This document shows, in pieces, positions 48,528 through 52,113 of a stretch of 64,000 bases of DNA. Source of the DNA: Octopus vulgaris (taxonomy: Eukaryota); assembly GCA_951406725.2 (NCBI GenBank), contig OX597834.1, forward strand, positions 29,202,001-29,266,000. Reading direction: 5' to 3'. The first letter of the stretch is position 1; each line of letters opens with the position of its first letter. The position numbers were made by a program.

Positions 48528-51422
48528 CATATTTATATATACATATATCAATATGTATATAAATATATATGTATCTATGTATATATAAAAGCTTAAGCTC
48601 TTTTAACTCCTCTCTGATGATGTCAAATCTTTTATATCTCTGAAACAGCTGTAAGGTCACCTTTCAATTTATAAATGTCCTAGGAATATCAAATTGCTTT
48701 GGCCTTGTTTTCTTATTTTATTTAACATATATCTCTATATGTATGTATATGTATATATATATATATGTACACATACACATACACAAACATACATAATGTA
48801 TATACACACATATACATGCTTCAATAACAATGTATATAACGATATATATCAGAGTATACAGTTTTACACGTGTACATCCATGCACACACACACACACACA
48901 CTTTTGCCCTGGCTATTGTGCCTATGGCCACTTATGAGATATTTTCCTTCAACCATTTAAAGGATGAGTGTGTGTGTTTACCACCTCACTGTCCCCACCC
49001 ATCCCCACCTGCTTCTACCTGTCCTTTAGCCATTGTCAACCACAATACCTGATGGCTGTTATTACAACATCACATTGAATAGAGCAAAATGGTTTCAGGT
49101 AGTTGATTGAGCTCTTAAAGTCTTTCGTCTTTATTCAGGTCTTTTCATAGAAATTACCACATTGCCACCATCACCACCGCCACAAGCACCATCACCACCA
49201 CCACACCATCATTACTACTCACCCTTATCAATACTATACTACTGCTACCATTAGTACTATCACTACAATATCACAAGCACCACCACTACCAACACCAACG
49301 ACAACAACATAATAACAGGTTCAACTATAAGAACATAATGGCTATTAACAATGAGGGGAAGTCCCAATGTGGTAGTTTAATTTACCAGAAATAGCAACCA
49401 AATATTCTTTAAATGACACCTTACTTTCGTCTTATGAAGAAGTTTCATCATCATCATTGTGTAACGTCCGCTTTCCATGCTAGCATGGGTTGGACGGTTC
49501 AACTGGGGTCTGGGAAGCCCGAAGGCTGCACCAGGCCTAGTCAGATCTGTCAATGTTTCTACAGCTGGATGCCCTTCCTAACACCAACCACTCCGTGAGT
49601 GTAGGGGGTGCTTTTTACGTGCCACTGACACAGGTTTATAATGGATAATGTTGTCCATGGTTGGTTTAGATTTTAACCATAAATCATACTGCTTTATCAG
49701 AGCTGTTGTTATCATCATAATCATCCTCTTCCTTATCATCATCTGTATCATTTAATGTCCGTTTTTCCATAGATGTGGCTAAGTGGTAAGAAGCCATCAC
49801 CAATATAGCACCAAAAGCAGCTCCAACAGCAACGACAATGGCTATAGCAGCACCAACACCGCCACTAATGCTGTCCCATAACACCAGCACCAACACCAAC
49901 TCCAGCACTACCAGCAAGTGGAGGCACAATGTCCCAAGGGTTAGGGCAGCGGACTCGCAGGCGGAGGATCGCGGTTTCAATTCCCAGACTGGGTGTTGTG
50001 TGTGTTTATTGAGAGAAAACACCTAAAGCTCCATGAGGCTCAGGCAGGGGATGGTGGAGACTCCTGTTGTACTCTTTCGTTCCAACTTTCTCTCACTCTT
50101 TCTTCCTGTTTCTTGTCCCCGACTTCCTATGCAACTGCTGAGCCTGGATGCGCATTCATCCATCCGTCGATGCTCTCAGTGTCGGGGGTTGACCTGCTTT
50201 CTCTTCTGCGGGTCTTACGAATAGCAAAGGACAATGTTTCGGACTTCTCCCATCTTGCGAGCTCTGGGATGGAGACTGTTCGCTCAACAGCAACAGCACC
50301 ACCAGCAAGGAAAGCAGCATCACCAGCAGCAGTATACAAAGATACATCAGATGTCCTGGAAACACCTTCAAGCAGTGCCTCTCCAACAACTGACCCTCAT
50401 TCAGGATCCCGGAGAGATGATGCACCACATCCTTTGCCAGCCATGTGTGATGCCTGAAGGACAAACGGACTCCATAAATAATCTCATGGAAGATCCTTGA
50501 AAACCCGAACCCTTAATGGGCAAGAATATTAAAGAACTCCCTTCACTTGGGGAAGATTTTAAATTCCAGAATGGAAGTCTTTGGACTCTACTTATACCTC
50601 AGGAGATTCCTACTGAACACCTGGGATCCACAGTCCTTCCTGCAAAGCAAATTAAATAAAATTTGGGATTTTTTATGGAGAGTGAAAGTGGTAACAAGGA
50701 CATATGTATGTATATGTGCATATAGTTATATATTATTTATATAAAATTGTTATATTTCGGAATGGTCATTTTGCCAGTTTAGCCAATAAAAACACACGCA
50801 CTATATATTTGGTGTTATTTTGCTTCAGTGTTATTTATTTTTTACATTAATCTTAATCTTATTTTGGCCAGAGTTCTTTCGTCTCACTCCTGTGACTGCA
50901 TCAGTGGTCCTTTGTTTTCTTCTTTCTTATTTGTGTCTCTCCTTACTAACCGTCAGCCATTTTGTATTTCTATTGTATGTCTTCATTTGCGCATGCTTAT
51001 ATCTCGATGTGCGTCTATGTTTATTTAGTGTGTGTGTGTGTGTGGGGGATGCCTGTAATATTTGTATATACACATATATATATACATACATATACAGCAA
51101 AAAAGAAAAGGGAGGGCATATATAAATGATATACATCAGCTGGTAGACATTCTATTACGTCTATTCTAAAACGTAAGTATAAGGAAGAGACATACTAGAA
51201 TGTCTACCGGCTGATGTATGTCATTTTTGTATTCCCTACATTTTCTTTTTTGCTGCATAAATTAAGGGTAAACCACTTTTTATCCCCACCCATATATGAC
51301 ACTCGATTGCAAAATTGCCACGCAATAACCAGCACTTGGCTATTAATATTTGAGTACCCTACCAGCAGTATATTGGATAGGTACTATCCCTTAGTTGGTT
51401 AGCTTCCCAATCTTTCCCACAG

Positions 51423-51460
<38 letters not shown>

Positions 51461-51656
51461 TTTATTTAAAAGCAGCAGAAATTCAACAAAACCTGTTACT
51501 CGGAGTTTCACGTTCCCGTTCGTCGGACAGTTTTGTTAAAACTCCGAGTAACAGGTTTTGTTGAATTTCTGTAGCTTTTAGATAAAGTATATTACTCTAC
51601 CCCTGGCATTTGAGTACTCTTTTTTCCACTTTATTTCACATGTATGTGTTTACTCC

Positions 51657-51698
<42 letters not shown>

Positions 51699-51841
51699 AG
51701 GCTTCTTTCAGTTTCTGTCCACCACTCACACGGCTATAGTAGAAGATACTTGCCCATGGTGCCACATGGTTGGACTGAACCTGGAACCACATGGTTGGGA
51801 AGCAAGCTTCTTAGCACAGAGCCACACCTTCATAAATAGAA

Positions 51842-51926
<85 letters not shown>

Positions 51927-52074
51927 GGTCCCGGGTTGATTCGGGGTTAACCACAGTAAATAAGGTACTCAATACATAGCAGAGTAAAAATAATTTATTA
52001 TATAGAAGGAGCTTCTACAGGACTAGAACTGTTTCATTCGAATGAAACAGTTCTAGTCCTGTAGAAGCTCCTTC

Positions 52075-52113
<39 letters not shown>

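What the first reader, a model, noticed from the sequence alone, without database searches (positions are those of the whole stretch)
50740..52083. Cluster of four different PLE-like micro-inserts, three of them hairpins, separated by TA-rich repeats
Seen within 1.35 kb: a hammerhead-bearing fragment (50740-~51050), a ~67-bp-arm imperfect hairpin with tail (51091-51425), a ~53-bp-arm hairpin with hammerhead and tail (51455-51660), and a perfect 44-bp-arm palindrome with tail (51925-52083). They differ in sequence, but the three hairpins share the architecture of the 47-kb element: (TA)n, short inverted arm, full arm plus tail, (TA)n. Arm identity varies, which suggests different ages. Inference: several families repeatedly target (TA)n and leave MITE-like RNA hairpins by a retro-mechanism.
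Basis: partly seen in the sequence, partly recalled or inferred. Interest (0 to 1): 0.75.

Follow-up and report, generated by a model that had tools for sequence, protein, structure and literature searches.

The report
Penelope-type hairpin mini-insertions in TA repeats
Three small hairpin-plus-tail DNA inserts sitting between TA repeats look like the usual footprint of Penelope-like retrotransposons, a known insertion pattern seen here in unusually small form, and not a new kind of element.

Summary
The three hairpins, their one-sided tails and the (TA)n arrays between them are real and far beyond chance. The hammerhead claims are not confirmed. Rfam finds none. Insert C has no catalytic core, and insert A has only a near-miss on the minus strand.

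The 47-kb element with the same layout is a 5'-truncated copy of a Hydra-clade Penelope-like element (PLE). It carries a C-terminal GIY-YIG endonuclease and sits head-to-head with an inverted copy of itself.

Published work already describes this layout for PLEs: an inverted 5'-truncated copy, a tail at one end only, and (TA)n targets. It also explains the tail. The PLE protein nicks and extends both target strands, and reverse transcription starts at two internal sites; the tail is the stretch between them.

Inserts B, C and D most likely are such insertions in miniature. They share the 8-mer TTGAGTAC in their tails. C, D and the 47-kb element have tails of about 62-74 nt.

Sequence similarity to the coding PLE is weak, and a TIR-type MITE reading cannot be excluded without the genome.

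Verdict: new members of a known kind, moderate to low interest.

The parts
50740..51050 (-). Insert A. A non-hairpin fragment between TA-rich tracts, unclassified, possibly a decayed PLE pLTR or retrozyme piece.
   Evidence: No other copy in the window apart from (GT)n-type matches. No Pfam-bearing ORF. It carries the hammerhead-like string listed next.
50877..50904 (-). Hammerhead-like string in A. The core box reads CUGAUG-C-A. Helix II has 5 pairs with one mismatch. It is followed by GAAA, a 2-bp helix III and a 3-bp helix I.
   Evidence: It is the only hit in the window to a descriptor that allows one inserted base in the core. 100 shuffled windows gave a mean of 0.15 hits, maximum 2. It has the best helix II of the 4 A9-substituted hits. 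Rfam gave 0 hits.
51065..51096 (.). Degenerate TA-rich tract that flanks B on the left.
   Evidence: TRF: period 12, 2.7 copies.
51091..51259 (+). Hairpin of insert B: inverted arm, a 17-nt centre, then the direct arm.
   Evidence: 62 of 72 arm positions match. This is the most diverged pair of arms, so probably the oldest.
51260..51424 (+). Tail of B, 165 nt, with TTGAGTAC at 51350-51357.
51425..51459 (.). (AT)17 array between B and C.
51460..51587 (+). Hairpin of insert C: 49-nt arms and a 30-nt asymmetric loop.
   Evidence: 46 of 49 arm positions match.
51588..51658 (+). Tail of C, 66-71 nt. It opens with a small stem-loop (TACTC, 14 nt, GAGTA), holds TTGAGTAC at 51610-51617, then a pyrimidine-rich tract.
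51659..51695 (.). (TA)18 array. It aligns with the SINE family's own internal TA tract.
51696..51850 (-). Insert S: a short, diverged copy of a tRNA-like SINE head.
   Evidence: 17 other copies in the window at 77-85% identity. A full copy of about 420 bp lies at 61930-62345.
51851..51923 (.). (TA)36 array between S and D.
51924..51997 (-). Tail of D, 69-74 nt, read on the minus strand. It has a stem-loop (TACTC, 12 nt, GAGTA) and TTGAGTAC at 51972-51965.
51998..52081 (-). Hairpin of insert D: a perfect palindrome, 44 nt on each side of the centre at 52039/52040.
52075..52113 (.). (TA)n array that closes the cluster.
47014..48457 (+). Reference element outside the finding, at 47 kb: a Hydra-clade PLE 3' fragment. 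The inverted arm is 47014-47704, the direct arm 47705-48395 and the tail 48396-48457. The end of the GIY-YIG ORF lies at 47705-48100.

Best explanation
B, C and D are very short insertions made by Penelope-like-element (PLE) retrotransposition into a (TA)n microsatellite. The enzyme was probably of the same Hydra-clade type as the 47-kb element.

Published for another PLE (PAc):
- The PLE protein nicks both strands of an AT-rich target and extends both.
- Reverse transcription starts at either of two nearby internal sites in the template RNA.

Inferred here:
- One strand receives a cDNA that starts at the distal site and so contains the tail. The other strand receives, or self-priming produces, a copy that starts at the proximal site and so lacks the tail.
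- Both copies end at the same 5' point.
- The result is (TA)n, inverted arm, direct arm plus tail, (TA)n.
- Each insertion splits the microsatellite into two arrays that remain targets. Unrelated inserts, including a SINE, therefore pile up side by side without nesting.
- Arm identity of 86%, 94% and 100% orders the ages as B, then C, then D.
For: 1. The layout is the same as in the 47-kb element. Its arms encode the C-terminal 131 aa of a GIY-YIG protein (P0001) that is 51% identical to residues 588-703 of the 704-aa P0002.
2. The P0002 family carries the traits that Craig et al. 2021 list for Hydra-clade PLEs. The motifs are DKT, YRDDG, CxCx5C, YxG...R...H, and CxxC..E..N..CxH. 3 of 21 members reach RVT_1 and 1 of 21 reaches GIY-YIG.
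3. The literature describes the layout. PLE insertions are 5'-truncated, often have an adjacent inverted 5'-truncated copy and a tail at one end only, and Hydra and Naiad elements insert into (TA)n (PMC8557442). Head-to-head inverted repeats with palindromes at the junction are attributed to self-priming (PMC3846280). Both strands are cut and extended, and the tail is the sequence between two internal RT start sites in a stem-loop (PMC11167929).
4. TTGAGTAC occurs 3 times in the window on both strands together. All three are in the tails of B, C and D, in the same orientation relative to the hairpin. A shared 8-mer arose in 47 of 20000 dinucleotide shuffles and 131 of 20000 random real triplets.
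5. C, D and the 47-kb element have tails of 62-74 nt. Each has a 4-5-bp stem-loop starting 0-13 nt after the arm end. The box (TTGAGGTC in the 47-kb element) lies about 20-25 nt into the tail, followed by a pyrimidine-rich tract.
6. The C-D unit alignment has z = 4.8, reached by 0 of 1000 shuffles, and it runs across the arm/tail junction. B versus the 47-kb element has z = 2.95, reached by 17 of 1000.
7. 7 of 8 element ends abut pure (TA)n.
Against: - Sequence similarity is weak. 4 of 6 unit pairs are not significant (198-473 of 1000 shuffles reach the score).
- Against 162 real TA-adjacent 120-mers, the C-D score of 35.5 is equalled by one unrelated segment for each partner, at 36.0.
- With arms and tails tested separately, the best results are only 46 of 1000 and 35 of 1000.
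- The junction stem-loops appear in the minimum-energy folds, but the folds are no more stable than shuffles (z = +1.3, -0.8, -1.5).
- There is no canonical hammerhead in B, C, D or the 47-kb fragment, although Hydra-clade PLEs are reported to carry them.
- The tails are 62-74 nt (165 nt in B), against 30-40 bp reported for other PLEs.
- A profile built from the C, D and 47-kb tails finds no further copy in the window.
- No genome was available, so copy number and partner elements are unknown.
Confidence: 0.6

Rival explanations
1. The hairpins are palindromic MITEs, that is non-autonomous TIR DNA transposons. They would be Tc1/mariner-like with a TA duplication, or microsatellite-targeting MULEs like the plant SaTar and MuTAnT elements. 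The 'tails' would be unrelated neighbouring sequence or separate small inserts.
For: - Each palindrome on its own is bounded by TA on both sides.
- Non-nested arrays of unrelated small elements at microsatellites are documented for SaTar MULEs (PMC5907723, abstract).
- A TA-microsatellite-targeting MULE family is listed (PMC4486113, listing only).
- If the genome is an octopus (my recollection only), Tc1-Mariner and MITE families are reported as recently active there (PMC13282606, Table 1 passage).
- Sequence similarity to the coding PLE is weak.
Against: - The tails are not random. All three share an oriented 8-mer.
- Tails of C and D match that of a coding PLE fragment in length and in the position of the box.
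- The C-D alignment crosses the arm/tail junction.
- The 47-kb element has the same layout and its arms are PLE coding sequence, which no MITE model explains.
- The outer ends of the arms of B, C and D share no terminal motif.
Confidence: 0.2
2. The palindromes are repair products. Breaks in fragile, cruciform-forming (TA)n would be healed by fold-back (snap-back) synthesis that duplicates adjacent sequence in inverted orientation, with no transposition involved.
For: - All palindromes abut (TA)n.
- D and the 47-kb element have essentially loop-free centres, as snap-back synthesis would give.
Against: - The duplicated sequence in the 47-kb element is a retroelement ORF end, so it is an insertion and not local flank.
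- Four independent events all leave a tail of similar design on one side.
- From general knowledge, not tested here: polymerase-theta-type templated inserts are usually much shorter than 44-691 nt.
Confidence: 0.05
3. B, C and D are families of short non-autonomous hairpin retroelements that amplify as such. The hairpin would be part of the transcribed master copy. They would not be one-off truncated copies of coding PLEs.
For: - C has a 30-nt asymmetric loop and B a 17-nt centre. That is easier to explain as inherited structure than as a fresh fold-back.
- The units are small, 116-241 nt of arm plus tail.
- Non-autonomous PLE derivatives exist: Chlamys MRC1 (PMC8557442 passage) and animal retrozymes (bioRxiv 10.64898/2026.07.22.740005, abstract).
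Against: - There are 0 further copies of B, C or D in 64 kb, while the SINE has 17.
- Divergence between the arms can equally be age.
- This is a sub-case of the best explanation, not a contradiction of it.
Confidence: 0.25

Closest known systems
Hydra-clade Penelope-like elements (Craig et al. 2021, PMC8557442)
   Same: - C-terminal GIY-YIG without the internal CCHH motif.
- DKT motif, CxCx5C linker, and CxxC / CxH around the conserved E and N.
- Short ORF of about 700 aa.
- Insertion into (TA)n.
These were checked on the 47-kb element and its protein relatives.
   Different: - No canonical hammerhead in the retained 3' fragment.
- B, C and D carry no coding sequence.
- Only B shows even weak similarity to the 47-kb element's 3' end.
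Generic EN+ PLE insertion structure: inverted 5'-truncated copy plus one-sided tail (PMC8557442; PMC3846280)
   Same: - Head-to-head inverted copy.
- Palindrome at the junction.
- Tail at one end only.
- Target duplication hidden in the microsatellite.
   Different: - The arms here are only 44-76 nt, so the whole insertion is 157-334 bp.
- The tails are 62-74 nt (165 nt in B), against the 30-40 bp reported.
PAc (Poseidon, Anolis) in vitro mechanism (Frangieh et al. 2024, PMC11167929)
   Same: - AT-rich target.
- Both strands are cut and extended.
- Reverse transcription starts at two internal sites in a stem-loop.
- The tail is the interval between those sites.
This gives a direct explanation for an arm without a tail facing an arm with one.
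   Different: - It belongs to a different PLE clade (Penelope/Poseidon).
- Nothing was assayed here.
- The stem-loop at the junction is only predicted and is not statistically supported.
SaTar / MuTAnT microsatellite-targeting MULEs of plants (PMC5907723; PMC4486113)
   Same: Linear, non-nested arrays of unrelated small elements separated by microsatellite remnants.
   Different: - They are class II TIR elements in plants.
- The elements here are asymmetric (a tail on one side) and resemble a retroelement footprint.
Hammerhead ribozymes of PLEs and retrozymes (Cervera & de la Pena 2014, PMC4209133)
   Same: The string in A has the type-I layout described there: an unpaired base before helix II, a G10.1-C11.1 pair, a short helix III and a short helix I.
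   Different: - The core box has C where A9 should be, or one extra base.
- Rfam does not score it.
- C has no core at all.

Membership tests
EN+ Penelope-like element insertion (footprint) | Head-to-head inverted 5'-truncated copy next to the direct copy | tested here: met
   B, C, D and the 47-kb element all show it.
EN+ Penelope-like element insertion (footprint) | Short extension (tail) at one end only | tested here: met
   Tails are 165, 66-71, 69-74 and 62-68 nt. They are longer than the published 30-40 bp.
EN+ Penelope-like element insertion (footprint) | AT-rich or (TA)n target | tested here: met
   7 of 8 ends abut pure (TA)>=6 arrays. The eighth abuts a degenerate TA tract.
EN+ Penelope-like element insertion (footprint) | Sequence homology of the insert to the 3' end of a coding PLE | tested here: inconclusive
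   - B versus the 47-kb element: 17 of 1000 shuffles reach the score.
- C and D versus the 47-kb element: 424 and 203 of 1000.
- Only one coding PLE 3' end was available for comparison.
EN+ Penelope-like element insertion (footprint) | Hammerhead motif in the pLTR | tested here: not met
   None in B, C, D or the 47-kb fragment. Short 3' fragments need not include the pLTR part that carries it.
EN+ Penelope-like element insertion (footprint) | Genome-wide series of 5'-truncated copies that share the 3' end | not testable with these tools
   No eukaryotic genome collection was available. There are 0 further copies in the window.
Hydra-clade PLE (47-kb element only) | C-terminal GIY-YIG lacking CCHH, with CxxC and CxH around the conserved E and N, plus DKT and a CxCx5C linker in full-length relatives | tested here: met
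   - P0001 has CGLC...E...N...CPH.
- Columns D115 K116, C563 C565 C571, C662 C665 E668, N682, C691 and H693 are invariant or nearly so in 21 relatives.
- The trait list comes from PMC8557442 section 11.
- No phylogeny with named Hydra references was made.
MITE (TIR DNA transposon) | Terminal inverted repeats at both true ends of the element | tested here: inconclusive
   Met only if the tail is excluded from the element. The shared oriented tail motif and the C-D alignment across the junction argue that the tail belongs to the unit.
MITE (TIR DNA transposon) | Target-site duplication of fixed length | tested here: inconclusive
   The flanks are (TA)n, so any TA or longer duplication is invisible.
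MITE (TIR DNA transposon) | Multicopy family with identical termini and a transposase partner | not testable with these tools
   There are 0 further copies in the window and no genome.
Hammerhead ribozyme | CUGANGA and GAAA core with helices I-III | tested here: not met
   - C has no CUGANGA.
- A's core reads CUGAUG-C-A.
- Rfam gave 0 hammerhead matches.
SaTar-like modular array | Non-nested linear array of unrelated elements separated by microsatellite | tested here: met
   The order is B, (AT)17, C, (TA)18, S, (TA)36, D, (TA)n. MULE identity was not tested and is not suggested.

The most novel reading that the evidence does not exclude
B, C, D and the 47-kb element reveal a (TA)n-targeting Hydra-type PLE lineage. 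Its reverse-transcription initiation module would be a tail of about 66 nt holding a small stem-loop and a TTGAGTAC-like box. Any short RNA carrying that module would be copied onto both target strands. That would create a class of amplifying non-coding hairpin retro-elements, a cross between a SINE and a MITE, which build non-nested arrays on TA tracts seeded by a SINE.
Probability: 0.25. Interest if true: 0.55.

Novelty: new member of a known kind. Interest (0 to 1): 0.33.

Why it matters
If the reading holds, these are some of the smallest complete PLE insertion footprints, 157-334 bp. Each preserves both junctions, the inverted copy and the tail.

That makes them natural read-outs of where reverse transcription starts on each target strand. 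The point was shown in vitro only in 2024, for one vertebrate PLE, and here it would apply to the divergent Hydra clade.

They also show that PLE activity, together with a SINE that carries its own TA tract, can turn one microsatellite into a growing array of inserts. This is relevant to repeat annotation, because such hairpins are easily mislabelled as MITEs or miRNA-like hairpins.

It is not a new mechanism.

Tried and rejected
1. Rfam was run at gathering score on the whole window, and at E<=10 or E<=1 on three sub-regions. No hammerhead appeared. The miRNA-precursor matches (for example 52.3 bits against a gathering score of 119) are generic hairpin matches and were dismissed.
2. Three hammerhead descriptors were tried: the Craig 2021 descriptor, and two of my own with a helix II test. 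The only hit in the region is the near-miss in A.
3. BLAST of A, B, C and D against the window found no second copy.
4. An nhmmer profile of the C, D and 47-kb tails, and of C and D alone, found no new hit below E = 0.01 apart from the elements' own arms.
5. Arms and tails were tested separately for similarity. The best results were 35 and 46 of 1000 shuffles.
6. RNA folds of the arm/tail junctions contain the stem-loops but are not more stable than shuffles.
7. I tested whether A is the missing 3' part of the split SINE, using the full SINE copy at 61930-62345. By eye it does not match in either orientation, so I rejected the idea.
8. Helitron reading. The units do not begin with TC or end with CTRR. 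Those termini are recalled, not looked up. Rejected.
9. Assembly artefact. This is unlikely for B and C, whose arms have diverged, and for D with its 44-nt arms. It cannot be excluded for the perfect 691-nt palindrome at 47 kb.
10. Pfam on 19 long stop-to-stop ORFs found nothing coding inside the cluster.
11. Literature searches turned up no paper that describes PLE hairpin-plus-tail insertions under 350 bp. That rests on four searches of an open-access library only. Supplementary files of the PLE papers were not opened.
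Full report
CONTEXT

The window is AT-rich eukaryotic DNA with an extraordinary density of (TA)n. It holds 80 arrays of 8 or more units, or 117 arrays of 6 or more units covering 3058 of 64000 bases. It also holds 18 copies of one tRNA-like SINE. The SINE reminds me of octopus genomes, but that is recollection only and was not tested.

THE OBSERVATION

- B has 76-nt arms at 86% complementarity. 62 of 72 aligned positions match.
- C has 54-nt arms at 94% with a 30-nt loop. 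46 of 49 positions match.
- D is a perfect palindrome for 44 nt on each side of 52039/52040.

Folded as single strands they give z-scores of -15.5, -14.6 and -19.2. In each case 0 of 200 shuffles is as stable.

Each hairpin has unique sequence on one side only, the tail:
- B: 51260-51424.
- C: 51588/51593-51658.
- D: 51924-51992/51997. D's tail lies to the left, so D is on the minus strand.

Pure TA arrays separate the inserts, and a degenerate TA tract lies left of B.

A window-wide scan for self-complementary matches returned 14 rows. Apart from one TA-rich tandem region (29238-29692), the only near-palindromes spanning 94 nt or more at 82% identity or more are B, C, D and the 47-kb element. 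7 of their 8 outer ends touch a pure (TA)n array. By my arithmetic, about 2% of positions lie within 5 nt of an array boundary, so this is far from chance.

Hammerheads:
- Rfam reports no family at gathering score anywhere in the window.
- No hammerhead family appears among 79 weak matches in 50300-52500.
- Nothing at all is reported in 50840-50950 searched alone.
- CTGATGA is absent from the region.
- The descriptor used by Craig et al. (CUGANGA, 7-17 nt, GAAA) hits only 32386 and 23937.
- C has a GAAAC and a small GC stem in its loop but no CUGANGA box, so it is not a hammerhead.

A does hold a hammerhead-like string on the minus strand (50904-50877).
- It has a helix II of 5 pairs with one mismatch, then GAAA, a 2-bp helix III, C17, and a 3-bp helix I.
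- This is the layout Cervera and de la Pena describe for metazoan PLE ribozymes, including the unpaired base before helix II (passages).
- The core box, however, reads CUGAUG-C-A.
- It is the only hit in the window to a descriptor that allows one extra core base. 100 shuffled windows gave a mean of 0.15 hits.
- I take it as a probable decayed hammerhead. The statistics alone are weak.

51696-51850 (minus strand) is a diverged short copy of the SINE, which has 17 other copies in the window. The SINE family has its own TA tract after its head. The (TA)18 at 51659-51695 aligns with that tract. At least part of the microsatellite landing pad was therefore probably supplied by a SINE.

THE 47-KB ELEMENT

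This element anchors the interpretation.
- Its arms are 47014-47704 and 47705-48395, with a single internal mismatch.
- A tail of 62-68 nt follows, and (TA)n lies on both sides.
- The direct arm starts inside an ORF. The last 131 codons (P0001) have a sub-threshold GIY-YIG match (18.2 bits against a cut-off of 22.6).
- P0001 is 51% identical to the C-terminus of the 704-aa P0002.

The P0002 family is very large. It has 22056 representatives at E<=0.001. Pfam barely recognises it: 3 of 21 members reach RVT_1 and 1 of 21 reaches GIY-YIG. A profile of the family reaches a retron reverse transcriptase only at E = 0.15.

Its conserved columns are the ones Craig et al. 2021 list for the Hydra clade of PLEs (section 11 read in full):
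- DKT instead of DKG.
- A CxCx5C linker.
- No CCHH inside GIY-YIG.
- An RWK-like N-terminal motif.
- ORFs of about 700 aa.

I did not build a tree with named Hydra references. The assignment rests on these motifs.

WHAT IS ALREADY KNOWN

- Craig et al. state that PLE insertions are strongly 5'-truncated and often have an inverted 5'-truncated copy directly upstream. They carry a 30-40-bp tail at one end only. Naiad and nearly all Hydra families sit in (TA)n (passages; section 11).
- Arkhipova et al. 2013 describe head-to-head inverted repeats with palindromes at the junction and attribute them to self-priming (passages).
- Frangieh et al. 2024 worked with purified PAc protein (main text parts 1-2 of 4). 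Both strands of an AT-rich target are cut and extended. Reverse transcription starts at two adjacent internal sites in a stem-loop that has no homology to the target. The genomic tail is the stretch between the two start sites.

Together these give a ready mechanism for the pattern (TA)n, arm without tail, arm with tail, (TA)n.

DO B, C AND D BELONG TO IT?

For:
- They have the same layout as the 47-kb element.
- The 8-mer TTGAGTAC occurs three times in the window counting both strands. All three are in the three tails, each pointing away from its hairpin. Three sequences of these lengths share any non-trivial 8-mer in 47 of 20000 dinucleotide shuffles and in 131 of 20000 triplets of real window segments.
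- In C, D and the 47-kb element the tails are 62-74 nt.
- In those three, a 4-5-bp stem-loop begins 0-13 nt after the arm end. The stems are TACTC/GAGTA in C and D and CCTC/GAGG in the 47-kb element.
- In those three, the box (TTGAGGTC in the 47-kb element) lies about 20-25 nt into the tail and a pyrimidine-rich tract follows.
- The C and D units align across the arm/tail junction with z = 4.8, reached by 0 of 1000 shuffles. B aligns to the 47-kb 3' end with z = 2.95, reached by 17 of 1000.

Against:
- The other four unit pairs are not significant.
- In an empirical control against 162 real TA-adjacent segments, the C-D score was equalled by one unrelated segment for each partner.
- Arms and tails tested separately are only marginal.
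- The junction folds are no more stable than shuffles.
- No profile hit extends the set.
- B deviates from the others, with a 165-nt tail and the box 91 nt in.
- There is no second copy of B, C or D in 64 kb.

CONCLUSION ON MECHANISM

The most likely reading (0.6) is that B, C and D are miniature PLE-type insertions into one microsatellite. That microsatellite was repeatedly re-used and was partly seeded by a SINE.

- Shown here: the structures, the flanks, the PLE identity of the 47-kb model and the shared tail motif.
- Taken from published work on other PLEs: both-strand priming and the two start sites.
- Inferred: that the same process made B, C and D, that the arm/tail junction and the tail end are the two start sites, and that arm divergence gives the age order B, then C, then D.

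Whether each is a one-off truncated copy of a coding PLE or a member of an amplifying hairpin family cannot be decided without the genome.

The main rival (0.2) is that the palindromes are TIR-type MITEs, as in the plant SaTar arrays (abstract), and the tails are bystanders. The oriented tail motif and the coding PLE with the same layout argue against it.

Repair-generated fold-backs are a distant third.

NOVELTY AND LIMITS

This is the known PLE insertion footprint at unusually small scale, in a genome where Hydra-type PLEs and a TA-bearing SINE co-operate to build arrays.

No eukaryotic genome collection was available. The closed collections were not used. Supplementary files of the PLE papers, which hold Hydra consensus sequences and hammerhead tables, were not opened. 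They could have allowed a direct comparison of 3' ends.

Noticed in passing
window 61930-62345 (full copy); heads at 4263, 6564, 12299, 13641, 15907, 26085, 31263, 31644, 34651, 38713, 45636, 46203, 46598, 54888, 59852, 61934, 62866: An abundant composite SINE of about 420 bp with a tRNA-like head and an internal TA/GT microsatellite. Several heads are also directly preceded by (TA)n, for example at 59847, 61929 and 31657. The SINE may both supply and prefer TA tracts.
   Followed up: partly
window 14777-15594: A second non-nested array. Inserts of 234, 186 and 251 nt are separated by (TA)13, (TA)20, (TA)28 and (TA)11. None has a hairpin and none carries the tail motif.
   Followed up: partly
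window 52506-52537: A 31-column alignment with 27 matches to the outer end of C's arm, followed by TA-rich sequence. It may be a remnant of a C-like element, or chance.
   Followed up: partly
window 614-1438 (minus strand): An ORF with a clear RVT_1 match (E = 1.2e-20). It belongs to another retroelement unrelated to the finding.
   Followed up: no
window 29238-29692: A TA-rich tandem region that is self-complementary overall (83% over 476 columns). TA arrays recur about every 56-68 nt.
   Followed up: no
window 61922-62347 and 62558-62974: Two SINE-containing segments of about 428 nt lie in inverted orientation, 90% identical and 210 nt apart.
   Followed up: no
proteins P0002-P0153 (not in the window): The Hydra-type PLE protein family is very large, with 22056 representatives at E<=0.001. 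Pfam's RVT_1 model misses 18 of the 21 full-length members tested, so such elements are likely under-annotated.
   Followed up: partly
window 49440-49635 and 49918-50103: Further dispersed repeats lie just upstream of the cluster. One has five other copies at 80-90% identity and the other has one copy at 37319-37505. Neither was classified.
   Followed up: no
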